Shown here one piece after another: positions 1-52,890 of a DNA stretch of 64,000 bases. The first letter of the stretch is position 1; the number at the start of each line of letters is the position of its first letter. A program made the position numbers and the translations under genes. The notes below the pieces were generated by a model, which did not search any database, was not told the DNA's origin, and saw nothing but the letters and a program-made list of their open reading frames with translations. Origin of the DNA: Eledone cirrhosa (Eukaryota); the NCBI GenBank assembly GCA_964016885.1, contig OZ024744.1, forward strand, positions 32,178,001-32,242,000. The letters run 5' to 3'.

Positions 1-682
1 GCTGCTGGTCCTTGAAAAAATCGGGTGGAGGTTTCAGGGAGACTCCATTGGCGCTTCTTGTCACCATGGCCCTTGCGACTGCCATCTCCTCCTCTGTGAC
101 TAATCCTGTCTCGATATTTCGGGCGACACCTGCAAAAGAAGTGGTCCCTTTTTCAGCAACACCACTATTGCTGCCGCTACTGGTCTTACTGGTGGTGCTG
201 AGATCGCTATTACAGGTATCGATGTCATTGTTGATGTTTTCGTTGGTACAGTTGTTGGTGTTGTTTTCGTTGATACTGTTGCTGTTTTTACTGTTATTGT
301 GGCTGTTGTTATTATTGTTGTTTTTGTTGATACTGTTCATACTATTATTGTTGTTGTGGCTGTTGTTATTGTCATTGTTATTGTCGTTCTCGACCTTACC
401 GCTGTTAGTTGTGTTATTGTCGTTTTCGACCTTACCGCTGTTATTTGTGTTATTGTCGTTCTCGACTTTACCGCTGTTATTTTTGGCGTTGTTGTTGGTG
501 ATGTTGTTGGTGTTATTGTTGGTGTTGTTTGTGTTAGAAATATTTGGTAATTTTAAATCTGTAACAATCTTCTTTTCCTTTGTAATATTTTCGTTTATAT
601 TTACCTCCGCTGGAACGCTGTCTTGTTGACATGCTGATAAAGTCTCCCTCTCTCTGTGTTGTCTGACAGCGCTCTCTTTCAA
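1..682 (-). CDS. Partial ORF1 (gag-like) of a Tx1-like LINE; TTG sits at the position of the expected start codon
   Basis: Manual translation gives LKESAVRQHRERETLSACQQDSVPAEVNINENITKEKK...(N/D/S-rich)...GTTSFAGVARNIETGLVTEEEMAVARAMVTRSANGVSLKPPPDFFKDQQ with no stop before the edge. It is absent from the ORF track, probably because it runs off the window. Confidence 0.6.
   Translation of the reverse strand, partial: MKESAVRQHRERETLSACQQDSVPAEVNINENITKEKKIVTDLKLPNISNTNNTNNNTNNITNNNAKNNSGKVENDNNTNNSGKVENDNNTTNSGKVENDNNNDNNNSHNNNNSMNSINKNNNNNNSHNNSKNSNSINENNTNNCTNENINNDIDTCNSDLSTTSKTSSGSNSGVAEKGTTSFAGVARNIETGLVTEEEMAVARAMVTRSANGVSLKPPPDFFKDQQ
374..481 (-). repeat. 36-bp tandem repeat x3 inside ORF1 (NNSGKVENDNNT)
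   Basis: Three copies of aataacagcggtaa(a/g)gtcga(g/a)aacgacaataacaca on the minus strand, offset 36 bp. Confidence 0.85.
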
Positions 683-4717: not shown

Positions 4718-4718
4718 A

Positions 4719-12742: not shown

Positions 12743-12775
12743 TCTCTTTTCCTCTTTTAACTTTTCAGCACCAAC

Positions 12776-16687: not shown

Positions 16688-16723
16688 TGTGTGTGTGTGT
16701 GTTTGTGTGAATGTGTGTGTGTG
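16688..16723. repeat. Interrupted (TG)n microsatellite
   Basis: Seen directly. Confidence 0.85.
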
Positions 16724-16783: not shown

Positions 16784-17864
16784 GCCAAGCGAGACCAGCC
16801 AAGCTCATGGATGTTATCCAACAATCTCGCCTGCCAGTTGTTTTTGACCGTAAAATCTGTCCACTGATTCTTTCCTGAGACATTCAAACCACATGTCCAC
16901 AGTATCATAGCTGTGATCTCTCAATTTAGAGATTTAGTGACTCTACCTGAATTAACTCTGTGATCGCCGAGCTACACACTTTATTGAGTAACGTTACTAC
17001 AAAGACCCTTCGGATGAATCACATTTTGGCTGCTTACGTTCGTGATTGTATTATTTCAGTCATTACCCAAGATTCATGACCATAGGTAAGGGTTTGTACA
17101 TATACGAATTGAAGATAGCGAGTTTGGCTTTTACACCAGCTTCCCTTCTTCTGTTTACTGAATGCTGAAGCCGGTGCATTACTGCACCAACTGATGCAAT
17201 TCTTGCATTTAATTCAGCCACCTGCCTTCCATCACTCGTGAACACGGCTCCGAGATATTTTACCCTATCAAGCTACTTCAGTGAAACTCCATTCACGTGT
17301 AGCATGCACTGCGCAGGCTCCTTTGAGAGGATGAGTGTCTTAGTTTTCACAACACTGATTTTCATTTCAGCTATTATGTAACACTCGGCATCAAACCTAT
17401 CAAGTGCAAGTCGACGGTCATCTTCTCCCGAGTTGAGTAACAAACACCATGTCATCTGAAAATTCCAGCCGACTGATTTTACACACGTAGGTTCTGAAAC
17501 CACTTGCAATCGGCGGCATATGTCAATCCTTTTCATGTAAATAATTGTTTCTACTATTGGCACAAGGCCAGCAAATCTCAGTACATTACTGGTACTTTAT
17601 TTTATAGACCAATGCAGTGGAGAGGTAACAGTAAGCAAACTTGGCAGAGTCCGTCACCCCATTGAATGGTTTTATTTTAACACCATTTATCCGAACACAA
17701 ATACTCGGGCATTCGTGTAGACATCAGGGCAGCAAGGAACTGACCATCAATTCCATACACCAGCACAACCTTCCACAGCAGGCCCTGAAGAACGCAGTCA
17801 AATGCCTTCTCAAGGTAGACAAAGCAATAATATACTTATTGGAAATACTTCCACGATTTCTTGA
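16784..17864 (-). mobile_element. Decayed RTE-clade (Expander/Rex3-like) LINE fragment: RT core through C-terminal region
   Basis: Manual minus-strand translation across frameshifts: KKSWKY..VYYCFVYLEKAFD..LLW..YGIDG..VRING..GLCQVCLLLPL [SINE] IIYMKRI..FSDD..LALDRFDAEC..MKISVVKTK..YLGAVFTSDG..KAKLAIFNS..WVMTEIIQSR..AAKM..IRRV..TLLNKVCSSAITELIQVE..IERSQL*YCGHVV*MSQERI..LDNIHELGWSRL. Confidence 0.88.
17541..17610 (-). mobile_element. SINE 3' fragment inserted into the RTE RT domain
   Basis: It matches the 3' end of the SINE at 2791-2990 (ttgtttctact...caaggccag...tactggtactttattttat) and interrupts the RTE frame between the QGC..SPL-like motif and IIYM. Confidence 0.7.
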
Positions 17865-19366: not shown

Positions 19367-19371
<5 letters not shown>

Positions 19372-19678
19372 CGTCCTCTCAAGAAGCTTACGCAGTGCAT
19401 TCTACATGTAAATGGAGTTCCACTGAAGCAGGTAGAGAAGTTCAAGTATCTCGGGGCAGTGTTCACGAGTGATGGAAGCAGGAGACTGAATAAGTGCAAG
19501 AATTGAAAAAGCAGGTGTAGTTATGCACCAGCTTCAGCATTCAGTAAACAGAAGTGAAGTAGGTGTTAAAGCCAAACTTACTGTCTTCAATGCGATATTC
19601 GTGCCAACTCTTCCTTATGGTCATGAATATTGGGTAATAACCGAAAGAATACGAGCGTGAATACACGCGGCCAAGTTT
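19367..19678 (+). mobile_element. Decayed RTE-clade LINE fragment leading directly into the satellite
   Basis: TQCILHVNGVPLKQVEKFKYLGAVFTSDG...ARIEKAGVVMHQLQHSVNRSEVGVKAKLTVFNAIFVPTLPYGHEYWVITERIRA*IHAA. It is roughly 80% identical by eye to the reverse complement of ~17025-17336. Confidence 0.9.
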
Positions 19679-22600
19679 AGAGAGCCACTCCAGGTAGAGC
19701 TGCTACATCTCCGAATTGGGAGATCACAGATCCGATACTATGGACATCTGGTTAGAATGTCTCAGGAGATCAGAGAGACAATCCAGGTAGAGCTGCTACT
19801 TCCCCGAATTGAGAGATCACAGATCCGATACTATGGACATCTGGTTAGAATGTCTCAGGAGATCAGAGAGTCACTCCAGGTAGAGCTGCTACTTCCCCGA
19901 ATTAAGAGATCACAGATCCGATACTATAGACATGTGGTTAGAATGTCTCAGGAGATCAGAGAGACAATCCAGGTAGAGCTGCTACTTCCCCGAATTGAGA
20001 GATCACAGATCCGATACTATGGACATCTGGTTAGAATGTCTCAGGAGATCAGAGAGACAATCCAGGTAGAGCTGCTACTTCCCCGAATTGAGAGATCACA
20101 GATCCGATACTATGGACATCTGGTTAGAATGTCTCAGGAGATCAGAGAGTCACTCCAGGTAGAGCTGCTACTTCCCCGAATTAAGAGATCACAGATCCGA
20201 TACTATAGACATGTGGTTAGAATGTCTCAGGAGATCAGAGAGACAATCCAGGTAGAGCTGCTACTTCTCTGAATTGAGAGATCACATCTCTGATATTATG
20301 GACATGTGGTTAGAATGTCTCAGGAGATCATAGAGTCACTCCAGGTAGAGCTGCTACTTCTCCACATTGAGAGATCACAGATCCGATACTATGGACATCT
20401 AGTTAGAATGTCTCAGGAGATCAGAGAGTCACTCCAGGTAGAGCTGCTACTTCCCCGAATTGAGAGATCAAAGATCCGATACTATGGACATGTGGTTAGA
20501 ATGTCTCATGAGATCAGAGAGTCACTCCAGGTTGAGCTGCTACTTCTCCGAATTGAGAGATCACAGATCCGATACTATGAACATCTGGTTAGAATGTCTC
20601 AGGAGATCAGAGAGTCAATCCAGGTAGAGCTGCTACTTCCCCGAATTGAGAGATCACAGATCCGATACTATGGACATGTGGTTAGAATGACTCAGGAGAT
20701 CAGAGAGTCATTCCAGGTTGAGATGCTACTTCTCCGAATTGAGAGATCACAGCTCTGATACTATTGATATGTGGTTAGAATGTCTCAGGATATCAGAGAG
20801 TCACTTCAGGTAGAGCTGCTACTTCTCTGACTTGAGAGATCACATCTCTGATACTATGGACATGCGGTTAGAATGTCTCAGGAGATCAGAGAGTCACTCC
20901 AGGTTGAGCTGCTACTTCTCCGATTTAAGAGATCACAGCTCCCATACTATGTACATCTAGTTAGAATGTCTCAGAAGATCAGAGAGTCACTCCAGGTAGA
21001 GCTGCTACGTCCCCTAATTGAGAGATCACAGATCCGATACAATGGACATGGGGTTAGAATGGCTCGGGAGATCAGAGAGTCATTCCAGGTAGAGATGCTA
21101 CTTCCACGAATTGAGAGATCACAGATCCGATACCATGGGCATGTGGTTAGAATGTCTCAGGATATCAGAGAGTCACTCCAGGTTCAGCTGCTACTTCTCT
21201 GATTTAAGAGATCACAGCTCTGATACTATGGACATGGGGTTAGAATATCTCAGGAGATCAGAGGGTCACTTCAGGTAGAGATGCTACTTCTCTGAATTGA
21301 GAGATCACAGATCCGATACTATGGTCATGGGGTTAGAATGTCTCAGGAGATCAGAGAGTCACTTCAGGTAGAGTTGCTACTTCTCTGAATTGAGAGATCA
21401 CAGATCCGATACTATGGTCATGTGGTTAGAATGTCTCAGGAGATCAGAGAGTCACTCCAGTTAGAGCTGCTACTTTTTCCGAATTGAGAGATCACAGATC
21501 TTATACTATGGACATGTGGTTAGAATGTCTCAGGAGATCAGAGAGTTATTCCAGGTTGAGCTGCTACTTCTCCGAATTGAGAGATCACAGATCCGATACT
21601 ATGGACATGTGGATAGAATGTCTCAGGCGATCAGAGATTCACTCCGGGTTGAGCTGCTACTTCTCCAATTTAAGAGATCACAGCTCCCATACTATGTACA
21701 TCTGGTTAGAATGTCTCAGGAGATCAGAGAGTCACTTCAGGTAGAGTTGCTACTTCTCTCAATTGAGAGATCACAGATCCGATACTATGTACATGTGGTT
21801 AGAATATCTCAGGAGATCAGAGAGTCACTCCGGGTTGAGTTGCTACTTCCCCGAATTGAGAGATCACAGATCTGATACTATGGGCATGTGGTTAGAATGT
21901 CATCAGGAGATCTGAGAGTCACAGCAGGTAGAGCTGCTACTTCTCCGAATTGAGAGATCACAGATCTGATACTATGGACATCTGGTTAGAATGTCTCAGG
22001 AGATCAGGGAGTCATTCCAGCTAGAGCTGCAACTTCTCTGAATTGAGAGATCACAGATCTGATACTATTGACACGCGGTTAGAATATCTCAGGAGATCAG
22101 AGAGTCACTTCAGGTAGAGATGCTACTTCTCTGAATTGAGAGATCACAGATCCGATACTATGGTCATGGGGTTAGAATGTCTCAGGAGATCAGAGAGTCA
22201 CTCCAGGTAGAGATGCTACTTCCCCGAATTGAGAGATCACAGACCCGATACTATGGACATGTGGTTAGAATGTCATCAGGAGATCTGAGAGTCACTCCAG
22301 GTAGAGCTGCTACTTCTCCGAATTGAGAGATCACAGATCTGATACTACGTACATGCGGCTATAATATCTCAGGAGATCAGAGAGTCACTTCAGGTAGAGA
22401 TGCTACTTCCCCGAATTGACAGATCACAGCTCTGATAATATGGACATGTGGTTAGAATGTCTCAGGAGATCAGAGAGTCACTCCAGGTAGAGATGCTCCT
22501 TCCCCGAATTGAGAGATCACAGATCCGATACTATGGACATCTGGTTAGAATGTATCATGCGATCAGAGAGTAAATCCAGGTAGAGATGCTACTTCTCCGA

Positions 22601-25600
22601 ATTGAGAGATCACAGCTCTGATACTATGGACATGTGGTTAGAATGTCTCAGGAGATCAGAGAGTGACTCCAGGTAGGGCTGCTACTTGTCTGAATTGAGT
22701 GATCACATCTCTGATACTTTGGACATGTGGTTAGAATGTCTCAGGAGATCAGAGAGTCACTCCGGGTTGAACTGCTACCTCTCCGAATTAAGAGATTACA
22801 GCTCCGATACTATGGACATCTGGTTAGAATGTCTCAGGAAATCAGAAAGTCACTCCAGGTAGAGCTGCTACTTCCCCGAATTGAGAGATCACAGATCCGG
22901 TACTATGGATATGTGTTTAGAATGTCTCAGGAGATCAGAGAGTCAATCCAGGTAGAGCTGCTACTTCCCCGAATTGAGAGATCACAGATCCGGTACTATG
23001 GATATGTGTTTAGAATGTCTCAGGAGATCAGAGTGTCACTCCAGATAGAGCTGCTATTTCCCCGAATTAAGAGATTACAGATCCGATACTATGGACATCG
23101 GGTTAGAATGTCTCAGGAGATCAGAGAGTAACTCCAGGTAGAGCTGCTACTTCCCCGAATTGAGAGATCACAGATCCGATACTATGGGCATGTGGTTAGA
23201 ATGTATCAGGAGATCAGAGAGTCATTCCAGGTTGAGCTGCAACTTCTCCAAATTGAGAGATCACAGCACTGATACTATTGATATGTGGTTAGAATATCTC
23301 AGGAGATCAGGGAGTCACTCCAGGTAGAGCTGCTACTTCTCCGAATTGAGAGATCACAGATCTGATTCTATTGATATGTGGTTAGAATGTCTAAGGATAT
23401 CAGAGATTCACTCCAGGTAGATCTGCTACTTCTCTGAATTGAGAGATCACAGACCCGATACTATGGACATCTCGTTAGAATGTCTCTGGAGATCAGACAG
23501 TCACTCCAGGTAGAGCTGCTACTTCCCCGAATTCAGAGATCAAAGATCCGATACTATTGATATGTGGTTAGAATGTCTCAGGATATCAGAGAGTCACTTC
23601 AGGTACAGCTGCTACATCCCCGAATTGAGAGATCACATCTCTGATACTATGGACATGTGGTTAGAATATCGCAGGAGATCAGAGAGTCACTCCGGGTTGA
23701 GCTGCTACTTCTCCGATTTAAGAGATCACAGCTCCCATACTATGTACATCTGGTTAGAATATCTCAGAAGATCAGAGTGTCACTCCAGGTAGGGCTGCTA
23801 CATCCCCGAATTGAGAGATCACAGATCTGATACTATGGACATGGGGTTAGAATATCTCAGGAGATCAGAGACTCACTTCAGGTTGAGTTGCTACTTCTCT
23901 GAATTGAGAGATCACAGATCTGATACTATGGTCATGAGGTTAGAATGTCTCAGGAGATCAGAGAGTCACTCCAGGTGGAGCTGCTACTTCTTTGAATTGA
24001 GAGATCACAGCTCCGAGACTATGGACATGTGGTTAGAATGTCTCAGGGGATCAGAGAGTTAATCCATGTAGAACTGCTACTTCTCCAAATTGAGAGATCA
24101 CTGCTCCAATACTATACACATGGGGTTAGAATATCTCAGGAGATCAGAGAGTCACTTCAGGTAGAGGTGCTACTTCTCTGAATTGAGAGATCACAGATCC
24201 GACACATTGGTCATGTGGTTAGAATGTCTCAGGAGATCAGAGAGTCACTTCAGGTATAGCTGCTACTTCTCCGAATTGAGAGATCACAGCTCTGATACTA
24301 TTGATATGTGGTTAGAATGTCTCAGGATATCAGAGAGTCACTTCAGGTAGAGTTGCTACTTCTCTGAATTGAGAGATCACAGCTCCCATACTATATACAT
24401 CTGGTTAGAATGTCTCAGAAGATCAGAGAGTCACACCAGGTAGAGCTGCTACGTCCCCGAATTAAGAGATCACAGATCCGATACTATGGACATCTGGTTA
24501 GAATGTCTCAGGAGATCAGGGAGTCACTCCCGGTAGAGCTGCTACTTCCCCGAATTGAGAGATCACAGCTCTGATACTATGGACATCTGGTTAGAATGTC
24601 TCAGGAGATCAGAGAGTCACTCCGGGTTGAACTGCTACCTCTCCGAATTAAGAGATTACAGCTCCGATACTATGGACATCTGGTTAGAATGTCTCAGGAA
24701 ATCAGAAAGTCACTCCAGGTAGAGCTGCTACTTCCCCGAATTGAGAGATCACAGATCCGGTACTATGGATATGTGTTTAGAATGTCTCAGGAGATCAGAG
24801 AGTCAATCCAGGTAGAGCTGCTACTTCCCCGAATTGAGAGATCACAGATCCGGTATTATGGACATGTGTTTAGAATGTCTCAGGAGATCAGAGTGTCACT
24901 CCAGGTAGAGCTGCTATTTCCCCGAATTAAGAGATTACAGATCCGATACTATGGACATCGGGTTAGAATGTCTCAGGAGATCAGAGAGTAACTCCAGGTA
25001 GAGCTGCTACTTCCCCGAATTGAGAGATCACAGATCCGATACTATGGGCATGTGGTTAGAATGTCTCAGGAGATCAGAGAGTCACTCCAGGTTGAGCTGC
25101 AACTTCTCCGAATTGAGAGATCACAGCACTGATACTATTGATATGTGGTTAGAATGTCTCAGGAGATCAGGGAATCACTCCAGGAAGAGCTGCTACGTCC
25201 CCGAATTGAGAGATCACAGATCCGATACTATGGACATCTGGTTAGAATGTCTCAGGAGATCAGGGAGTCACTCCCGGTAGAGCTGCTACTTCCCCGAATT
25301 GAGAGATCACAGCTCTGATACTATGGGCATGGGGATAGAATGTCATCAGGAGATCTGAGAGTTACTCCAGGTAGAGCTGCTACTTCTCCAAATTGAAAGA
25401 TCACAGATTTGATACTATGTACATGCGGCTAGAATAACTCAGGAGATCAGAGAGTCACTTCAGGTAGAGATGCTACTTCCCTGAATTGAGAGATCACATC
25501 ACTGTGACTATGGACATGTGGTTAGAATGTCTCAGGAGATCAGAGAGTCACTCCGGGTTGGGCTGCTACTTCTCCGAATTAAGAGATTACAGCTCCGATA

Positions 25601-28600
25601 CTATGGACATCTGGTTAGAATGTCTCAGGAGATCAGAGAGTCACTCCAGGTAGAGGTGCTATTTCCCCGAATTGAGAGATCACAGATCCGATAATATGCA
25701 CATCTGGTTAGAATGTCTCAGGAGATCAGAGAGTCAATCCAGGTAGAGCTGCTACTTCCCCGAATTGAGAGATCACAGATCCGGTACTATCGACATGTGT
25801 TTAGAATGTCTCAGGAGATCAGAGTGTCACTCCAGGTAGAGACTCTACTTCTCTGAATTGAGAGATCACAGCTCTGATACTATGGACATCGGGTTAGAAT
25901 GTCTCAGGAGGTCAGAGAGTCACTCCAGGTAGAGCTGCTACTTCCTTGAATTGAGGGATCACAGAACGGATACTATGGGCATGTGGTTAGAATGTCTCAG
26001 GATATCAGAGAGTCACTGCAGGTAGAGCTGTTACTTGTCTGAATTGAGAGATCAAAGATCCGATACTATTGATATATGGTTAGAATGTCTCAGGATATCA
26101 GAGAGTCACTTCAGGTAGAGCTGCTACTTCTCTGAATTGAGAGATCACAGATCTGATTCTATTGATATGTGGTTAGAATGTCTCAGGATATCAGAGAGTC
26201 ACTCCAGGTAGAGCTGCTACTTCCCCGAATTGAGAGATCACAGATCCGATACTATGGGCATGTGGTTAGAATGTCTCAGGAGATCAGAGAGTCATTCCAG
26301 GTTGAGCTGCTACTTCTCCGAATTGAGAGATCACAGCACTGATACTATTGATATGTGGTTAGAATGTCTCAGGAGATCAGGGAGTCACTCCAGGTAGAGC
26401 TGCTACTTATCCGAATTGAGAGATCACATCTCTGATTCTATTGATATGTGGTTAGAATGTCTCAGGATATCAGAGATTCACTCCAGGTGGATCTGCTACT
26501 TCTCTGAATTGAGAGATCACAGACCCGATACTATGGACATCTGATTAGAACGTCTCAGGAGATCAGAGAGTCACTCCAGGTAGAGCTGCTACTTCCCCGA
26601 ATTCAGAGATCAAAGATCCGATACTATTGATATATGGTTAGAATGTCTCAGGATATCAGAGAGTCACTTCAGGTAGAGCTGCTACTTCTCTGAATTGAGA
26701 GATCACAGATCTCATTCTATTGATATGTGGTTAGAATGTCTCAGGATATCAGAGAGTCACTCCAGGTAGAGCTGCTACTTCCCCGAATTGAGAGATCACA
26801 GATCCGATACTATGGGCATGTGGTTAGAATGTCTCAGGAGATCAGAGAGTCATTCCAGGTTGAGCTGCTACTTCTCCGAATTGAGAGATCACAGCACTGA
26901 TACTATTGATATGTGGTTAGAATGTCTCAGGAGATCAGGGAGTCACTCCAGGTAGAGCTGCTACTTATCCGAATTGAGAGATCACAGATCTGATTCTATT
27001 GATATGTGGTTAGAATGTCTCAGGATATCAGAGAGTCACTCCAGGTAGAGCTGCTACTTCTCTGAATTGAGAGATCACATCTCTGATACTATGGACATGT
27101 GGTTAGAATGTCTCAGGAGATCAGAGAGTAACTCCGGGTTGAGCTGCTACTTCTCCGATTTAAGAGATCACAGCTCCCATAGTATGTACATCTGGTTAGA
27201 ATATCTCATAAGATCAGAGAGTCACTCCAGGTAGAGCTGCTACTTCTCCGAATTGAGAGATCACATCTCTGATACTATTGACATGCGGTTAGAATATCGC
27301 AGGAGATCAGAGAGTCACTTGAGGTAGAGATGCTACTTCTCTGAATTGAGAGATCACAGATCCGATACTATGGACATGGGGTTAGAATGTCTCAGGAGAT
27401 CAGGGAGTCACTCCAGGTATAGATGCTACTTCCCAGAATTGAGAGATCACAGATCCGATACTATGGACATCTGGTTAGAATGTCTCAGGAGATCAGAGGA
27501 GTCACTCCAGGTAGAGCTGCTGCTTCTCTGAATTGAGAGATCACAGATCTGATACTATGTACATGTGCTTAGAATATCTCAGGAGATCAGAGAGTCACTC
27601 CAGGTAGAGCTGCTACTTCTCCGAATTGAGAGATCACAGATCCGATACTATGGACATCTGGTTAGAATGTCTCAGGAGATCAGAGGAGTCACTCCAGGTA
27701 GAGCTGCTACTTCCCCGAAATGAGAGATCACAGCTCTGATACTATGGACATGTGGTTAGAATGTCTCAGGATATCAGAGAGTCACTTCAGGTAGAGCTGC
27801 TACTTCCCCGAATTGAGAGATCACAGCTCTGATACTATGGACATGTGGTTAGAATGTCTCAGGATATCAGAGAGTCACTTCAGGTAGAGCTGCTACTTCC
27901 CCGAAATGAGAGATCACAGCTCTGATACTATGGACATGTGGTTAGAATGTCTCAGGAGATCAGAGAGTCATTCCAGGTAGAGCTGCTACTTCCCCGAATT
28001 GAGAGATCACAGCTCTGATACTATGGACATGTGGTTAGAATGTCTCAGGATATCAGAGAGTCACTTCAGGTAGAGCTGCTACTTCTCTGAATTGAGAGAT
28101 CACATCTCTGATACTATGGACATGGGTTAGAATGTCTCAGGAGATCAGAGATTCACTCCGGGTTGAGCTGCTACTTCTCCGATTTAAGAGATCACAGCTC
28201 CCATACTATGTACATCTGGTTAGAATGTCTCAGAAGATCAGAGAGTCACTCAAGGTAGAGCTGCTACGTGCCCGAATTGAGAGATCACATATCCGATACT
28301 ATGGGCATGTGGTTAGAATGTCATCAGGAGATCTGAGAGTCACTCCAGGTAGAGTTGCTACTTCTCCGAATTTAGAGATCACAGATCCGATACTATGCAC
28401 ATCTGGTTAGAATGTATCATGAGATCAGAGAGTCAATCCAGGTAGAGCTGCTACTTCTCCGAATTGAGAGATCACAGCTCTGATACTATGGACATGTGGT
28501 TAGAATGTCTCAGGAGATCAGAGAGTCACTCTGGGTTGAGCTGCTACTTCTCTCCGAATTAAGAGATTACAGCTCCGATACTATGGACATCTGGTTAGAA

Positions 28601-31600
28601 CGTCTCAGGAAATCAGAGAGTCACTCCAGGTAGAGCTGCTACTTCCCCGAATTGAGTGATCACAGATCCGGTACTATGGATATGTGTTTAGAATGTCTCA
28701 GGAGATCAGAGTGTCACTCCAGGTAGAGCTGCTATTTCCCCGAATTGAGAGATCACAGATCCGATAATATGGACATCTGGTTAGAATGTGTCAGGAGATC
28801 AGAGAGTCAATCCAGGTAGAGCTGCTACTTCCCCGAATTGAGAGATCACAGATCCGGTACTATGGACATGTGTTTAGAATGTCTCAGGAGATCAGAGTGT
28901 CAATCCAGGTAGAGCTGCTATTTCCCGAATTAAGAGATTACAGATCCGATACTATGGACATCGGTTTAGAATGTCTCTGGAGATCAGAGAGTCACTCCAG
29001 GTAGAGCTGCTACTTCCCCGAATTGAGAGATCACAGATCCGATACTATGGGCATGTGGTTAGAATGTCTCAGGACATCAGAGAGTCATTCCAGGTTGCGC
29101 TGCTACTTCTCCGAATTGAGAGATCACAGCACTGATACTATTGATATGTGGTTAGAATGTCTCAGGAGATCAGGGAGTCACTCCAGGTAGAGATGCTACT
29201 TCTCCGAATTGAGAGATCACAGATCTGATTCTATTGATATGTGGTTAGAATGTTTCAGGATATAAGAGATTCACTCCAGGTAGAGCTGCTACTTCTCTGA
29301 ATTGAGAGATCACAGACCCGATACTATGGACATCTGGTTAGAATGTCTCAGGAGATCAGACAGTCACTCCAGGTAGAGCTGCTACTTCCCCGAAATTCAG
29401 AGATCAAAGATCCGATACTTTTGATATGTGGTTAGAATGTCTCAGGATATCAGAGAGTCACTTCAGGTAAAGCTGCTACTTCTCTGAATTGAGAGATCAC
29501 ATCTCTGATACTATGGACATGTGGTTAGAATGTCTCAGGAGATCAGAGAGTCACTCCAGGTTGAGCTGCTAATTCTCCGATTTAAGAGATCACAGCTCCC
29601 ATACTATGTACATCTGGTTAGAATATCTCAGAAGATCAGAGAGTCACTCCAGGTAGAGCTGCTACGTCCCCGAATTGAGAGATCTCAGATCTGATACTAT
29701 GGACATGCGGTTAGAATATCGCAGGAGATCAGAGAGTCAATCCAGGTAGAGCTGCTACTTCTCCGAATTGAGAGATCACAGAATCCGATACTATGGTCAT
29801 GGGGTTAGAATGTCTTAGGGGATCAGAGAGTCACTCCAGGTATAGATGCTACTTCCCCGAATTGAGAGATCACAGATCCGATACTATGGACATCTGGTTA
29901 GAATGTCTCAGGAGATCAGGGAGTCACTCCAGGTAGAGCTGCTACTTCTCCGAATTGAGAGATCACACATCTGATACTATGTACATGTGGTTAGAATATC
30001 TCAGGAGATCAGAGAGTCACTCCAGGTAGAGCTGCTACTTCTCCGAATTGAGAGATCACACATCTGATATTATATACATGGGGTTAGAATATCTCAGGAG
30101 ATCAGAGACTCACTTCAGGTTGAGTTGCTACTTCTCTGAATTGAGAGATCACAGATCTGATACTATGGTCATGTGGTTAGAATGACTCAGGAGATCAGAG
30201 ATTCACTCCAGGTAGAGCTGCTACTTCTTTGAATTGAGAGATCACAGCTCCGATACAACGGACATGTGGTTAGAATGTCTCAGGGGATCAGAGAGTCACT
30301 CCAGGTAGAACTGCTACTTCTCCGAATTGAGAGATTACAAATCCGATACTATGGACATGTGGTTAGAATGTCTCAGGAGATAAGAGGAGTCACTCCAGGT
30401 AGAGCTGCTGCTTCTCTGAATTGAGAGATCACAGATCTGATACTATGTACATGTGGTTAGAATGTCTCAGGAGATCAGAGACTCACTTCAGGTTGAGTTG
30501 CTACTTCTCTGAATTGAGAGATCACAGATCTGATACTATGGTCATGTGGTTAGAATGTCTCAGGAGATCAGAGAGTCACTCCAGGTAGAGATGCTACTTC
30601 TTTGAATTGAGAGATCATAGCTCCGATACTATGGACATGTGGTTAGAATGTCTCAGGGGATCAGAGAGTCACTCCAGGTAGAACTGCTACTTCTCCGAAT
30701 TGAGAGATCACTGCTCCAATACTATACACATGGGGTTAGAATATCTCAGGAGATCAGAGAGTCACTTCAGGTAGAGTTGCTACTTCTCTGAATTGAGAGA
30801 TCACAGATCCGATACATTGGTCATGTGGTTAGAATGTCTCAGGAGATCAGAGAGTCACTCCAGGTAGAGCTGCAACTTCTCCGAATTGAGACATTACAGC
30901 TCCCATACTATGGACATGTGGTTAGAATGTCTCAAGAGATCAGAGAGTCACTCCAGGTAGAGCTGCAACTTCTCCGAATTGAGACATTACAGCTCCCATA
31001 CTATGGACATGTGGTTAGAATGTCTCGGGAGATCAGAGAGTCACTCCAGGTAGAGCTGGTACATCTCCGAATTGAGAGATCACAGCTCTGATACTATTGA
31101 TATGTGGTTAGAATGTCTCAGGATATCAGAGAGTCACTTCAGGTAGAGTTGCTACTTCTCTGAATTGAGAGATCACAGCTCCCATACTACGTACATCTAG
31201 TTAGAATGTCTCAGAAGATCAGAGAGTCACACCAGGTAGAGCTGCTACGTCCCCGAATTGAGAGATCACAGATCGGATACTATGGACATCTGGTTAGAAT
31301 GTCTCAGGAGATCAGGGAGTCACTCCAGGTAGAGCTGCTACTTCCCCGAATTGAGAGATCACAGATCCGGTACTATGGATATGTGTTTAGAATGTCTCAG
31401 GAGGTCAGAGTGTCACTCCAGGTAGAGCTGCTATTTCCCCGAATTGAGAGATCACAGATCCGATAATATGGACATCGGGTTAGAATGTCTCTGGAGATCA
31501 GAGAGTCACTCCAGATAGAGCTGCTACTTCCCCGAATTGATAGATCACAGATCCGATACTATGGGCATGTGGTTAGAATGTCTCAGGACATCAGAGAGTC

Positions 31601-34600
31601 ATTCCAGGTTGCGCTGCTACTTCTCCGAATTGAGAGATCACAGCACTGATACTATTGATATGTGGTTAGAATGTCTCAGGAGATCAGAGAGTCACTCCAG
31701 GTAGAGATGCTACTTCTCCGAATTGAGAGATCACAGATCTGATTCTATTGATATGTGGTTAGAATGTTTCAGGATATAAGAGATTCACTCCAGGTAGAGC
31801 TGCTACTTCTCTGAATTGAGAGATCACAGACCCGATACTATGGACATCTGGTTAGAATGTCTCAGGAGATCAGACAGTCACTCCAGGTAGAGCTGCTACT
31901 TCCCCGAAATTCAGAGATCAAAGATCCGATACTTTTGATATGTGGTTAGAATGTCTCAGGATATCAGAGAGTCACTTCAGGTAGAGCTGCTACTTCTCTG
32001 AATTGAGAGATCACATCTCTGATACTATGGACATGTGGTTAGTATGTCTCAGGAGATCAGAGAGTCACTCCAGGTAGTGCTGCTACTTCTCCGAATTGAG
32101 AGATCACACATCTGATATTATATACATGGGGTTAGAATATCTCAGGAGATCAGAGACTCACTTCAGGTTGAGATGCTACTTCTCTGAATTGAGAGATCAC
32201 AGATCTGATACTATGGTCATGTGGTTAGAATGACTCAGGAGATCAGAGATTCACTCCAGGTAGAGCTGCTACTTCTTTGAATTGAGAGATCACAGCTCCG
32301 ATACAATGGACATGTGGTTAGAATGTCTCAGGGGATCAGAGAGTCACTCCAGGTAGAACTGCTACTTCTCCGAATTGAGAGATTACAAATCCGATACTAT
32401 GGACATGTGGTTAGAATGTCTCAGGAGATAAGAGGAGTCATTCCAGGTAGAGCTGCTGCTTCTCTGAATTGAGAGATCACAGATCTGATACTATGTACAT
32501 GTGGTTAGAATGTCTCAGGAGATCAGAGAGTCACTCCAGGTAGAGATGCTACTTCTTTGAATTGAGAGATCACAGCTCCGATACTACGGACATGTGGTTA
32601 GAATGTCTCAGGGGATCAGAGAGTCACTCCAGGTAGAACTGCTACTTCTCCGAATTGAGAGATCACTGCTCCAATACTATACACATGGGGTTAGAATATC
32701 TCAGGAGATCAGAGAGTCACTCCAGGTAGAGCTGCTACTTCTCTGAATTGAGAGATCACAGATCCGATACATTGGTCATGTGGTTAGAATTTCTCAGGAG
32801 ATCAGAGAGTCACTCCAGGTAGAGCTGCAACTTCTCCGAATTGAGACATTACAGCTCCCATACTATGGACATGTGGTTAGAATGTCTCAGGAGATCAGAG
32901 AGTCACACCAGGTTGAGCTGCTACGTCCCTGAATTGAGAGATCACAGATCGGATACTATGGACATGTGGTTAGAATGTCTCAGGAGATCAGAGCGTCACT
33001 TCAGGTAGAGATGCTACTTCCCCGAATTGAGAGATCACAGCTCTGATAATATGGACATGTGGTTAGAATGTCTCAGGAGATCAGAGAGTCACTCCAGGTA
33101 GAGCTGCTACTTCTCCGAATTGAGAGATCACAGATCCGATACTATGGACATCTGGTTCGAATGTCTCAGGAGATCTGAGAGTCATTCCAGGTTGAGCTGC
33201 TACTTCTCCGAAATGAGAGATCGCAGCTCTGATACTATGAACAGGCGGTTAGAATGTCTCAGGAGATCAGAGAGTCACTCCAGGTTGAGCTGCTACTTCT
33301 CCGATTTAAGAGATCACAGCTCCCATACTATGTACATCTAGTTAGAATGTCTCAGAAGATCAGAGAGTCACTCCAGGTAGAGCTGCTACGTCCCCGAATT
33401 GAGAGATCACAGATCCGATACTATGGACATCTGGTTAGAATGTCTCAGGAGATCAGGGAGTCACTCCCGGTAGAGCTGCTACTTCCCCGAATTGAGAGAT
33501 CACTGCTCCAATACTATACACATGGGGTTAGAATATCTCAGGAGATCAGAGAGTCACTTCAGGTAGAGTTGCTACTTCTCTGAATTGAGAGATCACATCT
33601 CTGTTACTATGGACATGTGGTTAGAATGTCACAAGAGATCAGAGAGTCACTCCAGGTTGAGCTGCTACTTCTCCGAATTGAGAGATCACACCTCCCATAC
33701 TATGTACATCTGGTTAGAATGTCTCAGAAGATCAGAGAGTCACACCAGGTAGAGCTGCTACGTCCCCAAATTGAGAGATCTCATATCCGATACTATGGGC
33801 ATGGGGATAGAATGTCATCAGGAGATCTGAGAGTCACTCCAGGTAGAGCTGCTACTTCTCCGAATTGAGAGATCACATCTCTGTTACTATGGACATGGGG
33901 TTAGAATATCTCAGGAGATCAGAGACTCACTTCAGGTAGAGATGCTACTTCCCAGAATTGAGAGATCACAGATCCGATACAATGGACATGTGGTTAGAAT
34001 ATCTCAGGAGATCAGAGAGTCAGTCCGGGTTGAGCTGCTACGTCCCCTAATTGAGAGATCACAGATCCGATACTATGGACATGGGCTTAGAATGGTTCGG
34101 GAGATCAGAGAGTCATTCCAGGTAGAGATGCTACTTCAACGAATTGAGAGATCACAGATCCGATACTATGGACATCTGGTTAGAATGTCCCAGGAGATCA
34201 TGGAGTCACTCCAGGTAGAGTTGCTACTTCTCTGAATTGAGAGATCACAGATCCAATACTATGGTCATGTGGTTAGAATGTCTCAGGAGATCAGAGAGTC
34301 ACTCCAGGTTGAGCTGCTACTTCTCCGAATTGAGAGATCACAGATCCGATACTATGGACATGTGGTTAGAATGTCTTAGGAGATCAGAGAGTCACGTCAG
34401 GTAGAGTTGCTACTTCTCTGAATTGAGAGATCACAGATCCGATACTATGTACATGTGGTTAGAATGTCTCTGGAGATCAGAGAGTCAATCCAGGTAGAGC
34501 TGCTACTTCCCTGAAATGAGAGATCACAGATCCGATACAATGGACATGTGGTTAGAATGCCTCAGGAGATCAGAGAGTCATTCCAGGTTGAGCAGCTACT

Positions 34601-37600
34601 TCTCCGAAATGAGAGATCACAGCTCTGATACTATTGATATGTGGTTAGAATGTCTCAGGATATCAGAGAGTCATTTCAGGTAGAGCTGCTACTTCTCTGA
34701 ATTGAGAGATCACATCTCTGATACTATGGACATGTGGTTAGAATGTCTCCGGAGATCAGAGATTCACTCCGGGTTGAGCTGCTACTTCTCCGATTTAAGA
34801 GATCACAACTCCCATACTATGTACATCTGGTTAGAATGTCTCAGAAGATCAGAGAGTCACTCCAGGTAGAGCTGCTACGTCCCCTAATTGAGAGATCACA
34901 GATCCGATACTATGGACATGGGCTTAGAATGGCTCGGAAGATCAGAGAGTCATTCCAGGTAGAGATGCTAATTCCACGAATTGAGAGATCACAGATCCGA
35001 TACTATGGACATCTGGTTAGAATGTCTCAGGAGATCATGGAGTCACTCCAGGTAGAGCTGCTACTTCTCCGAATTGAGAGATCACAGATCTGATATTATG
35101 TACATGGGGTTAGAATATTTCAGGAGATCAGAGAGTCACTTCAGGTAGAGATGCTACTTCTCTGAATTGAGAGATCACAGATCCGATAATATGGTCATGG
35201 GGTTAGAATGTCTCAGGAGATCAGAGAGTCAATCCAGGTAGAGATGTTACTTCACCGAATTGAGAGATCACAGATCCGATACTATGGACATCTTGTTAGA
35301 ATGTCTCAGGAGATCAGGGAGTCAATCCAGGTAGAGCTGCTACTTCTCCGAATTGAGAGATCACAGATCTGATACAATGTACATGTAGTTAGAATGTCTT
35401 AGGAGATCAGAGAGTCACTTCAGGTAGAGCTGCTACTTCTCTGAATTGAGAGATCACAGATCCGATACTATGGTCATGTGGTTAGAATGTCTCAGGAGAT
35501 CAGAGAGTCACTTCAGGTAGAGTTGCTACTTCTCTGAATTGAGAGATCACAGATCCGATACTATGGTCATGTGGTTAGAATATCTCAGGAGATCAGAGAG
35601 TCACTCCGGGTTGAGTTGCTACTTCCCCGAATTGAGAGATCACAGATCTGATACTACGGGCATGTGGTTAGAATGTCATCAGGAGATCTGAGAGTCACAG
35701 CAGGTAGAGCTGCTACTTCTCCGAATTGAGAGATCACAGATCTGATACTATGGACACCTGGTTAGAATGTCTCAGGAGATCAGGGAGTCATTCCAGGTTG
35801 AGCTGCTACTTCTCCGAAATGAGAGATCACAGCTCTGATACTATTGACATGTGGTTAGAATGTCTCAGGAGATCAGAGATTCACTCCGGGTTGAGCTGCT
35901 ACTTCTCCGATTTAAGAGATCACAGCTCCCATACTATGTACATCTGGTTAGAATGTCTCAGGAGATCAGAGAGTCACTCCAGGTAGAGCTGCTACGTCCC
36001 CGAATTGTGAGATCACAGATCTGATACTATGGACATCTGGTTAGAATGTCATCAGGAGATCTGAGAGTCACTCCAGGTAGAGCTGTTACTTCCCCGAATT
36101 GAGAGATCACAGATCCGGTACTATGGACATGTGTTTAGATTGTCTCAGGAGATCAGAGTGTCACTCCAGGTAGAGGTGCTATTTCCCCGAATTGAGAGAT
36201 CACAGATCCGATAATATGGACGTCTGGTTAGAATGTCTCAGGAGATCAGAGTTTCATTCCAGGTGGAGCTGCTACTTCTCTGAATTGAGAGATCACAGAC
36301 CCGATACTATGGACATCTTGTTAGAATGTCTCAGGAGATCAGGGAGTCAATCCAGGTAGAGCTGCTACTTCTCCGAATTGAGAGATCACAGATCCGATAA
36401 TATGGTCATGGGGTTAGAATGTCTCAGGAGATCAGAGAGTCAATCCAGGTAGAGATGTTACTTCACCGAATTGAGAGATCACAGATCCGATACTATGGAC
36501 ATCTTGTTAGAATGTCTCAGGAGATCAGGGAGTCAATCCAGGTAGAGCTGCTACTTCTCCGAATTGAGAGATCACAGATCTGATACAATGTACATGTAGT
36601 TAGAATGTCTTAGGAGATCAGAGAGTCACTTCAGGTAGAGATGCTACTTCTCTGAATTGAGAGATCACAGATCCGATACTATGGTCATGCGGTTACAATA
36701 TCTCAGGAGATCAGAGAGTCACTCCGGGTTGAGTTGCTACTTCCCCGAATTGAGAGATCACAGATCTGATACTACGGGCATGTGGTTAGAATGTCATCAG
36801 GAGATCTGAGAGTCACAGCAGGTAGAGCTGCTACTTCTCCGAATTGAGAGATCACAGATCTGATACTATGGACACCTGGTTAGAATGTCTCAGGAGATCA
36901 GGGAGTCATTCCAGGTTGAGCTGCTACTTCTCCGAAATGAGAGATCACAGCTCTGATACTATTGATATGTGGTTAGAATGTCTCAGGATATCAGAGAGTC
37001 ATTTCAGGTAGAGCTGCTACTTCTCTGAATTGAGAGATCACATCTCTGATACTATTGACATGTGGTTAGAATGTCTCAGGCGATCAGAGATTCACTCCGG
37101 GTTGAGCTGCTACTTCTCCGATTTAAGAGATCACAGCTCCCATACTATGTACATCTGGTTAGAATGTCTCAGGAGATCAGAGAGTCACTCCAGGTAGAGC
37201 TGCTACGTCCCCGAATTGTAAGATCACAGATCTGATACTATGGACATCTGGTTAGAATGTCATCAGGAGATCTGAGAGTCACTCCAGGTAGAGCTGTTAC
37301 TTCCCCGAATTGAGAGATCACAGATCCGGTACTATGGACATGTGTTTAGATTGTCTCAGGAGATCAGAGTGTCACTCCAGGTAGAGGTGCTATTTCCCCG
37401 AATTGAGAGATCACAGATCCGATAATATGGACATCTGGTTAGAATGTCTCAGGAGATCAGAGAGTCAATCCAGGTAGAGCTGCTACTTCCCCGAATTGAG
37501 AGATCACAGATCCGGTACTATGGACATGTGTTTAGAATGTCTCAGGAGATCAGAGTGTCACTCCAGGTAGAGCTGCTATTTCCCCGAATTAAGAGATTAC

Positions 37601-40600
37601 AGATCCGATACTATGGACATCGGGTTAGAATGTCTCAGGAGGTCAGAGAGTCACTCCAGGTAGAGCTGCTACTTCCCCGAATTGAGAGATCACAGAACGG
37701 ATACTATGGGCATGTGGTTAGAATGTCTCAGGAGATCAGAGAGTCATTCCAGTTTGAGCTGCTACTTCTCCGAATTGAGAGATCACAGCTCTGATTCTAT
37801 TGATATGTGGTTAGAATGTCTCAGGATATCAGAGTTTCACTCCAGGTGGAGCTGCTACTTCTCTGAATTGAGAGATCACAGACCCGATACTATGGACATC
37901 TGGTTAGAATGACTCAGGAGATCAGACATTCACTCCAGGTAGAGCTGCTACTTCCGTGAATTCAGAGATCAAAGATCCGATACTATTGATATGTGGTTAG
38001 AATGTCTCAGGATATCAGAGAGTCACTTCAGGTAGAGCTGCTACTTCTCTGAATTGAGAGATCACGTCTCTGATACTATGGACATGTGGTTAGAATATCT
38101 CAGGAGATCAGAGAGTCACTCCGGGTTGAGCTGCTACTTCTCCGATTTAAGAGATCACAGCTCCCATACTATGTACATGCGGTTAGAATATCTCAGGAGA
38201 TCAGAGAGTCACTTCAGGTAGAGATGCTACTTCTCTGAATTGAGAGATCACAGATCAGATACTATGGACATGTGGGTAGACTGTCACAGGAGATCAGGGA
38301 GTCACTCCGGGTTGAGCTGCTACTTCTCTGAATTGAGAGATCACGGATCAGATACTATGGACATGTGGATAGAATGTCTCAGGAGATCAGATAGTCACTC
38401 CAGGTAGAGCCGCTACTTTTCTGAATTGAGAGATCACAGATCTGATACTATGGACATGTAGTTAGAATATCTCAGGAGATCAGAGTGTCACTCCAGGTAG
38501 AGTTGCTACTTCTCCGAATTGAGAGATCACAGATCCGATACTATGCACATCTGGTTAGAATGTATCATGAGATCAGAGATTCAATCCAGGTAGAGATGCT
38601 ACTTCTCCGAATTGAGAGATCACAGATCCGATACTATGGACATCTGGTTAGAATGTCTCAGGAGATCAGGGAGTCACTCCCGGTAGAGCTGCTACTTCCC
38701 CGAATTGAGAGATCACATATCCGATACTATGGGCATGTGGTTAGAATGTCTCAGGAGATCAGAGAGTCACTTCAGATAGAGATGCTACTTCCCCGAATTG
38801 AGAGATCACAGGTCTGATAATATGGACATGTGGTTAGAATGTCTCAGGAGATCAGAGAGTCACTCCAGGTTCAGCTGCTACTTCTCCGAAATGAGAGATC
38901 ACAGATCCGATACTATGGAAATGGTGTTAGAATGTCTCAGGAGATCAGAGACTCACTTCAGGTAGAGCTGCTACTTCTCTGAATTGAGAGATCACAGATC
39001 CGATACTATTGACATGTGGTTAGAATGTCTCAGGAGATCAGACAGTCATTCCAGGTAGAGCTGCTACTTCCCCGAATTCAGAGATCAAAGATCCGATACT
39101 ATGGACATCTGTTTAGAATGTCTCAGGAGATCAGAGAGTCACTCCAGGTTTAGCTGCTATGTCTCCGAATAGAGAGATCACAGCTCTGATACAATGGACA
39201 TTTGGTTAGAATGTCTCAGGAGATCAGAGAATCACTTCAGGTATAGCTGCTACTTCTCTGAACTGAGAGATCACAGATCCGATACAATGGACATGTGGTT
39301 AGAATGTCTCGGGAGATCAGAGAGTCACTCCAGGTAGAGCTGCTACTTCCCCGAATTGAGAAATCACAGATCTGATACTATGGACATCTGGTTAGAATGT
39401 CTCAGGAGATCAGGGAATCACTCCAGGTAGAGCTGCTACTTCTACGAATTGAGAGATCACAGATCTGATACTATGTACATGTGGTTAGAATATATCAGGA
39501 GATTAGAGAGTCACTTCAGGTAGAGTTGCTACTTCTCTGAATTGAGAGATCACAGATCCGATACTATGGTCATGTGGTTAGAATGTCTCAGGTGATCAGA
39601 GAGTTACTCCAGGTAGAGCTGCTACTTCTCCGAATTGAGAGATTACAACTCTCGATACTATGGACATTTGGTTAGAATGTCTCAGGAGATCAGACAGTCA
39701 CTCCAGGTAGAGCTGCTACTTCCCCGAATTCAGAGATCAAAGATCCGATACTGTGGCCATCTGGTTAGAATGTCTCAGGAGATCAGAGTGTCAATCCAGG
39801 TAGAGCTGCTACTTCCCTGAATTGAGAGATCACAGATCCGATACTATGGACATGTGGTTAGAATGTTTCAGCAGATCAGGGAGTCACTCCAGCTTGAGGT
39901 GCTACTTCTCTGAATTGAGAGATCACAGTTCTGATACTATGGACATGTGGTTAGAATGTCTCAGGAGATCAGAGAGTCACTCCAGGTAGAGCTGCTACTT
40001 CTCTGAATTGAGAGATCACAGATCAGATACTATGGACATGTGGTTAGAATGTCTCAGGAGATCAGAGAGTCACTCCAGGTAGAGTTGCTACTTCTCCGAA
40101 TTGAGAGATCACAGATCCGATACTATGCACATCTCGTTAGAATGTATCATGAGATCAGAGAGCTAATCTAGGTAGAGCTGCTAGTTCTCCGAATTGAGAG
40201 ATCACAGCTTTGATACTATGGACATGTGGTTAGAATGTCTCAGGAGATCAGGGAGTTACTCCGGGTTGAGCTGCTACTTCTCCGAATTAAGAGATTATAG
40301 CTCCGATACTATGGACATCTGGTTAGAATGTCTCAGGATATCAGAGAGTCACTCCAGGTAGAGCTGCTACTTCCCCGAATTGAGAGATCACAGATCCGGT
40401 ACTATGGACATGTGTTTAGAATGTCTCAGGAGATCAGAGTGTCACTCCAGGTAGAGCTGCTATTTCCCCGAATTGAGAGATCACAGATCCAATACCATGC
40501 ACATCTGGTTAGAATGTCTCAGGAGATCAGAGAATCACTCCAGGTAGAGCTGCTACTTCCCCGAATTGAGAGATCACAGATCTGATACTATGGTCATGTG

Positions 40601-51700: not shown

Positions 51701-52890
51701 GTCACTTCAGGTAGAGCTGCTACTTCTCCGAATTGAGAGATCACAGATCCGATACTATTGACATGTGGTTAGAATGTCTCAGGAGATTAGACAGTCACTC
51801 CAGGTAGAGCTGCTACTTCCCCGAATTGAGAGATAAAAGATCCGATACTATGGACATGTGGTTAGAATGTCTCAGCAGATCAGAGAGTCACTCCAGGTAG
51901 AGTTGCTACTTCTCCGAATTGAGAGATCACAGATCCGATACTATGCACGTCTGGTTAGAATGCATCAGGAAATCAGAGAGTCATTCCAGGTAGAGCTGCT
52001 TCTTCCCCGATTTGAGAGATCACAGATCCGTAACTATGGGCATGTGGTTAGAATGTCTCAGGAGATCAGAGAGTCACTCCAGGTTTAGCTGCTACTTCTC
52101 CGAATTGAGAGATCACAGCTCTGATACAATGGACATTTGGTTAGAATGTCTCAGGAGATCAGAGAATCACTTCAGGTATAGCTGCTACTTCTCTGAATTG
52201 AGAGATCACAGATCCGATACTATGGACATGTGGTTAGAATGCCTCAGGAGATCAGAGAGTCACTCCAGGTAGAGTTGCTACTTCCCCGAATTGAAAGATC
52301 ACAGATACGATACCATGCACATCTGGTTAGAATATCACAGGAGATCAGAGAGTCAATCCAGGTAGAGCTGCTACTTCCCCGAAATGAGAGATCACAGATC
52401 CAATACTATGGACATGGTGTTAGAATGTCTCAGGAGATCAGAGAGTCACTTCAGGTAGAGCTGCTACTTCACCGAATTGAGAGATCACAGATCCGATACT
52501 ATGGAAATCTGTTTAGAATGTCTCAGGAGATCAGAGACTCACTCCAGGTAGAGCTGCTACTTCCCCGAATTGAGAGATCAAAGATCCGATACTATGGACA
52601 TGTGGTTAGAATGTCTCAGCAGATCAGAGAGTCACTCCAGGTAGAGCTGCTACTTCCCCGAATTGAGAGATCACAGATCCGATACTATGAACATCTGTTT
52701 AGAATGTCTCAGGAGATCAGAGAGTCACTCCAGGTAGAGCTGCTACTTCCCCGAATTGAGAGATCAAAGATCCGATACTATGGAGATGTGGTTAGAATGT
52801 CTCAGCAGATCAGAGAGTCACTCCAGGTAGAGTTGCTACCTCTCCAAATTGAGAGAACACAGATCCGATACTATGCACATCTGGTTAGAA
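48770..52890 (+). repeat. Higher-order tandem duplication, 2 x 2046 bp (22 monomers)
   Basis: ORF-track entries recur at +2046 with few differences: 49161/51207, 49440/51486, 49812/51858, 50184/52230. Confidence 0.88.

What the first reader, a model, noticed from the sequence alone, without database searches (positions are those of the whole stretch)
16872..16964. Unamplified single-copy homologue of the monomer with both native flanks, 2.7 kb from the array on the opposite strand
Seen: the reverse complement of 16872-16964 is exactly 93 bp and aligns without gaps to the satellite consensus (17 differences by my count, ~82%). Its context is ...gtgtgtagctcggcg|ATC...atgtctcaggaa|agaatcagtgg. 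This fixes the duplication breakpoints. The satellite junction cagGAGatc joins the downstream caggaa-a to the upstream tcggcg-atc. Inference: if the family consensus reads tcggaga and caggaga, a ~3-5-bp GGA(GA) microhomology 93 bp apart explains the founding duplication.
Basis: partly seen in the sequence, partly recalled or inferred. Interest (0 to 1): 0.75.

Follow-up and report, generated by a model that had tools for sequence, protein, structure and literature searches.

The report
Satellite junctions spreading through LINE copies
The flagged 93-base copy is just one of thousands of decayed fragments of a retrotransposon, but that same short stretch of the element has become tandem-repeat (satellite) DNA at hundreds of places in this genome, likely because a few repeat junctions are copied from one fragment into another by recombination and then expand.

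Summary
Observation confirmed: the reverse complement of 16872-16964 is 93 bp and gapless, with 17 differences from the array consensus. It is not special. It is one of thousands of dispersed copies of an RTE-type LINE, the most distant of 54 non-array copies from the satellite, and no closer to the array's host than others. The 80-kb array sits inside its own LINE host. The family consensus confirms a 3-bp GGA microhomology, not 5 bp. The wider finding is that the same ~125-bp coding segment is tandemly repeated at ≥231 exact-match sites. Units are 123, 99, 93, 65, 111 and 97 bp, with arrays up to 170 kb. The 93-bp junction occurs at 19 loci on 9 contigs; the commonest junction (123 bp) has no microhomology. 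Junctions ignore LINE subfamilies, favour small chromosomes and cluster locally by type. Array-specific variants turn up in unrelated host insertions. Most likely, rare junctions spread between LINE copies by ectopic recombination and then expand (0.5). Template jumps during insertion remain a live rival, especially for 2-4-unit seeds. An inverted neighbour beside arrays is not significantly enriched.

The parts
16872..16964 (-). Unduplicated 93-bp segment of a decayed dispersed RTE-type LINE copy (the finding); a bystander, not the array's parent
   Evidence: 17 differences to the array consensus, 15 to the family consensus; most distant of 54 non-array copies
16785..17442 (-). The 3'-truncated LINE fragment that holds it; RT-like reading frames continue to about 17860
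   Evidence: 84% to the family consensus, positions -475..202 relative to monomer base 1; translation
16965..16968 (-). Upstream breakpoint word: GGCG here, GGAG in the family (private change in this copy)
16873..16875 (-). Downstream GGA of the 3-bp microhomology, 93 bp from the upstream GGA
19367..19675 (+). 5' part of the array's own LINE host, joined to the first monomer across a ~60-bp deletion
19676..64000 (+). 93-bp satellite array; continues to window coordinate 99803 (859 monomers, ~80 kb) and runs straight into the host's native 3' end and (GAA)n tail; non-coding
   Evidence: 443 of 830 monomers carry a stop in the old reading frame, against 330 expected at random

Best explanation
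The array is an 80-kb tandem expansion inside its own RTE-type LINE host, and its 93-bp junction is one of a handful of junctions that likely arose rarely and were then copied into other dispersed LINE copies by ectopic recombination before expanding in place. Shown: the host structure; recurrence of identical junctions in separate insertions; transfer of array-specific variants between unrelated hosts in two cases. Inferred: the first 93-bp duplication formed at the GGA microhomology somewhere in the genome. Inferred: spread was by synthesis-dependent gene conversion or by homologous integration of excised monomer circles, mostly while copies were young and alike. Inferred: expansion was by unequal exchange. 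The copy at 16872 is an unconverted bystander.
For: (1) The 14-unit array at window coordinate ~208 kb has monomers 0-4 differences from monomers of the big array. It carries that array's variants (A55 7/14, C73 6/14; singles 2/61, 0/64), although the two hosts differ by 19%. (2) A two-unit copy on C23 (L099) carries the three diagnostic changes of the C2 array in one unit only, the only carrier among 185 parsed loci; the hosts differ at 38 aligned positions. (3) The 123-bp junction has no microhomology, yet is identical in 40 records, so it cannot be independent in-place duplication. (4) Junction classes sit on both LINE subfamily backgrounds and share no excess 3'-flank variants (123 class 4.5 vs 4.4 per kb), so they are not single-source clades. 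(5) Junction type clusters within 5 Mb: 42% vs 18% shuffled, p=0.0004, also without C19, while flanks are not shared. (6) 15 of 231 junction hits lie on C1-C5, against 40 of 96 family copies (p=2e-13); for two-unit loci, 4 on C1-5 vs 12 on C12-19, against 40 vs 17 (p=0.003). (7) Junctions carry inherited-looking bases: T at 111>C in 8/38 123-junctions vs 2/68 singles, p=0.004; T at -11 in 9/9 last units of the 111 class vs 18/51. (8) 15 of 89 loci mix unit lengths; some of these may be small indels.
Against: Clustering by type is absent among loci of <=4 units (18% vs 20%, only 28 pairs). Neighbouring loci do not share more unit variants than shuffled (0.30 vs 0.25, p=0.24), so most transfers would have to be old. 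Two-unit loci share only 22% (95% interval 13-30%) of their non-CpG changes, as an insertion-time origin also predicts. The four commonest in-frame classes (123, 99, 93, 111) hint at passage through RNA, though 4 of 7 types is not significant. No polymorphism, eccDNA or recombination-rate data were available.
Confidence: 0.5

Rival explanations
1. The LINE reverse transcriptase pauses in this zone during target-primed insertion and jumps back on its RNA at stereotyped sites, writing the junctions into new copies; DNA-level processes only expand and exchange them later.
For: The zone coincides with where single copies are 5'-truncated. Units of two-unit loci are nearly as diverged as independent copies (22% shared; cross-locus 9%). 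30 of 81 loci start inside the first unit, and L318, L238 and L089/L237 have target-site duplications abutting such structures. Both subfamilies carry the same junctions. Upstream breakpoints lie at the 3' arm of a predicted RNA hairpin at -42..+3. R2 template jumping is mentioned in PMC2718515 (passages).
Against: It does not predict the ~10-fold bias to small chromosomes, which holds for two-unit loci too, nor local clustering of types, nor array-private variants in foreign hosts. Conversion into an already truncated copy gives the same TSD-bounded structure, so that test does not discriminate.
Confidence: 0.25
2. A few active source elements carried in-frame tandem duplications and retrotransposed them, as with Ogre or LTR12 internal repeats.
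For: 123, 99, 93 and 111 are multiples of three, and the 93-bp dimer is stop-free. An identical junction without microhomology fits a single origin.
Against: No class-specific flank variants and no excess sharing within classes; the subfamily marker at 195 segregates within classes as in singles (123: 10/30; singles 18/70). The chromosome bias and local clustering are unexplained.
Confidence: 0.15
3. One reading: each array began by an independent in-place microhomology duplication, with nearby inverted copies perhaps helping.
For: The GGA microhomology is real. 99, 97, 70 and 65 have 1-2 bp plus imperfect homology, and 65 shows several crossover points in one register. The C28 and C2 93-bp arrays have different diagnostic variants.
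Against: The 123 junction has none, in 40 records. Units of two-unit loci share 22% of changes, not the ~50% expected for duplication at random times. 30 of 81 loci lack the upstream breakpoint in their first unit. An inverted neighbour within 4 kb was seen at 2 of 9 further large arrays vs 2 of 60 other loci, p=0.08.
Confidence: 0.1

Closest known systems
Rsp-like satellite spreading into 1.688 clusters, Drosophila simulans clade (PMC7403614; passages read)
   Same: A microhomology-born junction spreads to loci holding an abundant homologous repeat, by interlocus conversion or eccDNA reintegration, then expands locally.
   Different: Here the landing pads are dispersed single LINE fragments rather than satellite clusters, the junction joins two points of the same LINE, and many unit lengths coexist across chromosomes.
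Ogre LTR-retrotransposon-derived satellites of Lathyrus sativus (PMC7004042; passages read)
   Same: One retroelement family yields several satellites through short internal arrays that occasionally expand inside their host, with a regional bias.
   Different: Ogre repeats are pre-existing 3'UTR arrays spread by the element. Here the source is unique coding sequence, most copies have one unit (0 of 30 control-ascertained copies had a junction), and junction classes are not clades.
LINE ORF-derived satellites: chicken CR1 HinfI, Phodopus PROsat, cetacean common satellite (as listed in review PMC9659126; passages and section 8 read)
   Same: Satellite monomer derived from LINE ORF2 or 3' sequence.
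   Different: In the passages seen these are single satellite families; no series of unit lengths or junction spread among dispersed copies is described.
Human TE-derived minisatellites with hotspots in AluS and LTR12 (PMC3389668; passages read)
   Same: Tandem repeats arise preferentially from particular TE segments, and most lack a known initiating mechanism.
   Different: Those arrays average 2-3 units for Alu; here arrays reach ~1,800 units with base-identical junctions across chromosomes.

Membership tests
APE-type non-LTR retrotransposon (LINE) | Reverse transcriptase domain | tested here: met
   RVT_1 in L014 (E 2.4e-8) and L350 (2.9e-10)
APE-type non-LTR retrotransposon (LINE) | Apurinic-like endonuclease upstream of RT | tested here: met
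   Exo_endo_phos_2 E 6e-6 in one long copy, L347; 26.6 bits, just under the 27.4 cut-off
APE-type non-LTR retrotransposon (LINE) | Variable 5' truncation, fixed 3' end, target-site duplications | tested here: met
   5' ends spread from -303 to +73; TSD-like matches >=8 bp in 8 of 38 singles and 10 of 66 junction copies, against 3-4% in shuffled pairs
RTE clade (Rex3/Expander-like) | 3' tail of short tandem repeats rather than poly(A) | tested here: met
   (GAA)n tails in consensus and hosts; that this marks RTE is recalled, not from a call
RTE clade (Rex3/Expander-like) | RT phylogeny groups with RTE references; single ORF | not tested
   No reference set was fetched; the label rests on recalled motif likeness and the tail
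TE-derived satellite DNA | Long head-to-tail array whose monomer matches a TE segment | tested here: met
   859 monomers; consensus 4 of 93 bases from the family consensus
Microhomology-mediated tandem duplication | Short direct repeat at both breakpoints, one unit apart | tested here: met
   GGA, 3 bp, for the 93 class; chance level 5.9%; not met for the 123 class
Parent or sister locus of the array | Closer to the array and its host than other copies | tested here: not met
   16/92 from the satellite, most distant of 54; 17.7% from host flanks
Satellite spread by interlocus conversion/eccDNA (Rsp-like type) | Donor-specific variants in unrelated acceptor loci | tested here: met
   208-kb array vs big array; L099 vs C2 array; two cases only
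Satellite spread by interlocus conversion/eccDNA (Rsp-like type) | General excess of shared unit variants among neighbours | tested here: inconclusive
   Junction types cluster (p=0.0004), unit variants do not (p=0.24)
Satellite spread by interlocus conversion/eccDNA (Rsp-like type) | Monomers present on extrachromosomal circles; pre-conversion alleles | not testable with these tools
   Needs eccDNA sequencing or several haplotypes

The most novel reading that the evidence does not exclude
Tandem junctions behave as infectious elements inside a dead LINE family. A few rare joins, one of them without any microhomology, spread by recombination through hundreds to thousands of dispersed copies and turn them into seeds of a whole satellite library (units 32-162 bp, arrays up to 170 kb), giving a genome-wide graded series from 1 to ~1,800 units.
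Probability: 0.4. Interest if true: 0.72.

Novelty: new variant of a known kind. Interest (0 to 1): 0.5.

Why it matters
How satellite DNA starts and how it reaches new chromosomes are old questions that usually lack ancestral states. Here the unduplicated ancestor exists in thousands of copies, the breakpoints are known to the base, and every stage from two units to ~1,800 is present at many independent loci in one assembly. That makes birth, spread and expansion of satellites directly countable, and it separates junction origin from array growth. The flagged copy itself adds nothing beyond any other family member.

Tried and rejected
(1) Window copy as parent or close sister: rejected. (2) 5-bp microhomology: rejected. 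(3) Stray monomer: rejected; it has family bases at monomer positions 26, 55 and 93 and native flanks. The 92-column tree has 42 of 84 forks open and the monomers themselves are not one clade, so the tree alone is weak. (4) Inverted neighbour as trigger: 2 of 9 further arrays of >30 units vs 2 of 60, p=0.08; p=0.019 only if the discovery case is counted. Left out of the 9: the 14-unit array (has one at 3.6 kb), C1:211.5 Mb (25 units, none), C4:89.6 Mb (only 2.5 kb read), C18:2.3 Mb and C1:18.47 Mb (boundary not reached). (5) The two C28 inverted pairs as a segmental duplication: only LINE and short repeat matches between them. (6) Exceptional hairpin in the hot segment: a stem at 47-78 is predicted, but window z-scores are only -0.9 to -1.4. 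(7) Hairpin-perfecting mutation as a general rule: only positions 69, 66 and 67 fit, so sharing of 66C/67A among 65-bp arrays was not used as evidence of transfer. (8) Coding selection on the array: none. (9) TSD plus 5' end inside a unit as proof of RNA-level origin: does not discriminate. (10) One search's distance test failed for lack of coordinates and was rerun. (11) The scan's earlier findings returned nothing.

Full report
Observation. The reverse complement of 16872-16964 is 93 bp and matches the consensus of 468 window monomers without gaps, with 17 differences; monomers differ from that consensus by 6.9 on average. The best match of the consensus in window 1-16700 is 41/93, so the likeness is real. 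The copy lies in a decayed LINE fragment on the minus strand (16785-17442, 84% to the family consensus). Positions below count from monomer base 1.

It is not a unique copy. The window is G000:C28:32178001-32242000 in a 3.0-Gb genome. Searching with the fragment gave 9,414 candidates, and the 39 other listed matches were 79-83% identical. Single 28-mers have 7,622 and 2,905 exact matches. Relatives carry RT, an endonuclease domain just under the curated cut-off, (GAA)n tails, 5' truncations and TSDs. This is an APE-type LINE; the label RTE is recalled and was not tested by phylogeny.

The array has its own host. Left of the array, 19367-19675 is the same LINE, joined to the first monomer across a ~60-bp deletion. 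The array continues to window coordinate 99803 (859 monomers) and runs into the native 3' end and tail. The flagged copy is 17.7% from these host flanks, at the far end of 35 other copies (13-17.8%). It is the most distant of 54 non-array copies from the satellite consensus and groups with dispersed copies in a poorly resolved tree of 88 rows, which used 30 sampled monomers. It is a bystander.

Breakpoints. In 29 dispersed copies, chosen by likeness to the flagged copy, the upstream site reads GGAG (23, 25, 27, 25 of 29) and the downstream site GGAA (27, 29, 27, 29 of 29). The GGA microhomology is 3 bp, not 5. Chance gives >=3 bp at 5.9% of candidate breakpoint pairs. The satellite consensus differs from the family at 4 of 93 bases, one being the junction. 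The array is non-coding: 443 of 830 monomers have stops, against 330 expected.

The segment is a genome-wide source of tandem repeats. Nearby lie a 65-bp array of 482 units (window coordinates 159451-190777) and a 14-unit 93-bp array (207986-209288), each in its own host. The 93-bp junction has 1,622 exact matches. I found it at 19 separate loci on 9 contigs, after dropping two rows that were not 93-bp junctions (L090, L098). One is a ~170-kb array on C2 with different diagnostic variants. A pattern for array right ends gave 231 exact hits; I parsed 90 of the first 100 listed. With earlier loci, 113 records held a junction in this zone, one place counted twice and one misparsed: 123 bp in 40 records, 99 in 21, 93 in 17, 65 in 16, 111 in 10, 97 in 5. 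Other long arrays: 99 bp over >=55 kb on C18; 65 bp on C1; 97 and 99 bp on C2. A control word 70 bases downstream gave 22 tandem hits at 15 loci and none on C1 or C2, against 4,332 hits for the hot word with 9 loci on C1. Junction copies are still a minority: 0 of 30 copies picked by the control word and 4 of 28 picked by the hot word.

Mechanism tests. Independent in-place duplication fails. The 123-bp junction is base-identical without microhomology, and in 30 two-unit loci the units share 22% (13-30%) of non-CpG changes, against 9% across loci and ~50% expected for random timing. That count still included a few CpG sites hidden in the consensus. A single source element fails too: real subfamilies exist (linkage of -138, -54, -16 and 195), but each junction class occurs on both, and classes share no excess flank variants. 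Insertion-time jumps fit the divergence, the 30 of 81 loci that start inside a unit (22.7 expected from singles' 5' ends) and three TSD-bounded cases. They do not predict the next three results. First, 15 of 231 junction hits lie on C1-C5 against 40 of 96 family copies, and the bias holds for two-unit loci (p=0.003); the 96 are least-diverged copies of one subfamily allele. Second, among 89 loci, pairs within 5 Mb share junction type in 42% of cases against 18% shuffled (p=0.0004; also within C12-20 and without C19). Only 14 of the 40 same-type pairs share any outer sequence, all short pieces that look like interspersed repeats. Third, array-private variants appear in foreign hosts: the 14-unit array matches monomers of the big array at 0-4 differences though hosts are 19% apart, and L099 on C23 carries the C2 array's three changes in one of two units. 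Against this reading, clustering is absent among loci of <=4 units (28 pairs), and neighbours do not share more unit variants than chance (p=0.24). I therefore favour rare junction birth, early ectopic copying between LINE copies and local expansion (0.5), with RT jumps at 0.25 and source elements at 0.15.

Inverted neighbour. Both large C28 arrays and one C2 array have a divergent inverted copy 2-3 kb upstream. Beyond the discovery case the count is 2 of 9 large arrays vs 2 of 60 other loci, p=0.08. This is not established; arrays left out are listed under Tried and rejected.

Comparison. Each ingredient is known. LINE-derived satellites: PMC9659126 (passages and one section). Several satellites from one retroelement: PMC7004042 (passages). 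Hotspots of TE-derived repeats: PMC3389668 (passages). Spread of a microhomology-born junction by conversion or eccDNA: PMC7403614 (passages). RT template jumping: PMC2718515 (passages). Nine literature searches (listings and abstract starts only) showed no report of one LINE coding segment giving a series of unit lengths with identical junctions spread through dispersed copies. The library lacks most subscription journals, and no supplements were read.

Verdict. The flagged copy is ordinary, and its 3-bp microhomology is real but explains little. The system it points to is a new variant of known satellite-birth processes with unusually complete intermediates. Interest 0.5.

Noticed in passing
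window 4644-16379 (+); ORFs 4965-6893 and 6915-10364: A different LINE in head-to-tail tandem (~5.85-kb unit, 96-97% identical). The first copy has a 643-aa and a stop-free 1150-aa frame with endonuclease, RT and zf-RVT domains; it is bordered by (TATC)n/TTTC-type repeats, so it may be a recently active, repeat-targeting element.
   Followed up: partly
L119/L356 (C1:18.468-18.479 Mb) and L340 (C4:89.62 Mb): A second source segment at about -237..-194 of the same LINE gives a 32-bp array (>=11 kb) and a 42-bp array (57 units). It coincides with the strongest predicted hairpin (z -4 to -7). The C4 element also holds a 36-bp array from the main zone.
   Followed up: partly
monomer position 69: G>A rises from 21/60 in singles to 30/43 in arrays of >=6 units, is unlinked to subfamily markers and would perfect a predicted stem. 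66C/67A, shared by several 65-bp arrays on different chromosomes, would too. Unexplained.
   Followed up: partly
window coordinate ~156670 (-), beyond the window (L040): A dispersed copy 88/93 identical to the satellite consensus, 2.4 kb upstream of the 65-bp array and inverted; a far better monomer match than the flagged copy.
   Followed up: yes
L231 (C24:19.95 Mb), L232 (C24:20.49 Mb): Nested multi-junction copies such as [75..211][41..193][72..312], hard to explain by simple tandem duplication.
   Followed up: no
L288 (C15:35.65 Mb), L271, L283, L318: Junction-bearing copies whose nearest neighbours within 4 kb also carry junctions, mostly of the same or a near unit length; fits local transfer.
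   Followed up: no
L118 (C1:18.31 Mb) and L115: They share a 3' flank at 96% but differ at the 5' end; L118 has a short fold-back inversion at its 5' junction.
   Followed up: no
window 17545-17620 and flanks of the fetched region: Short interspersed repeats resembling, from recall only, octopod SINEs; not tested.
   Followed up: no
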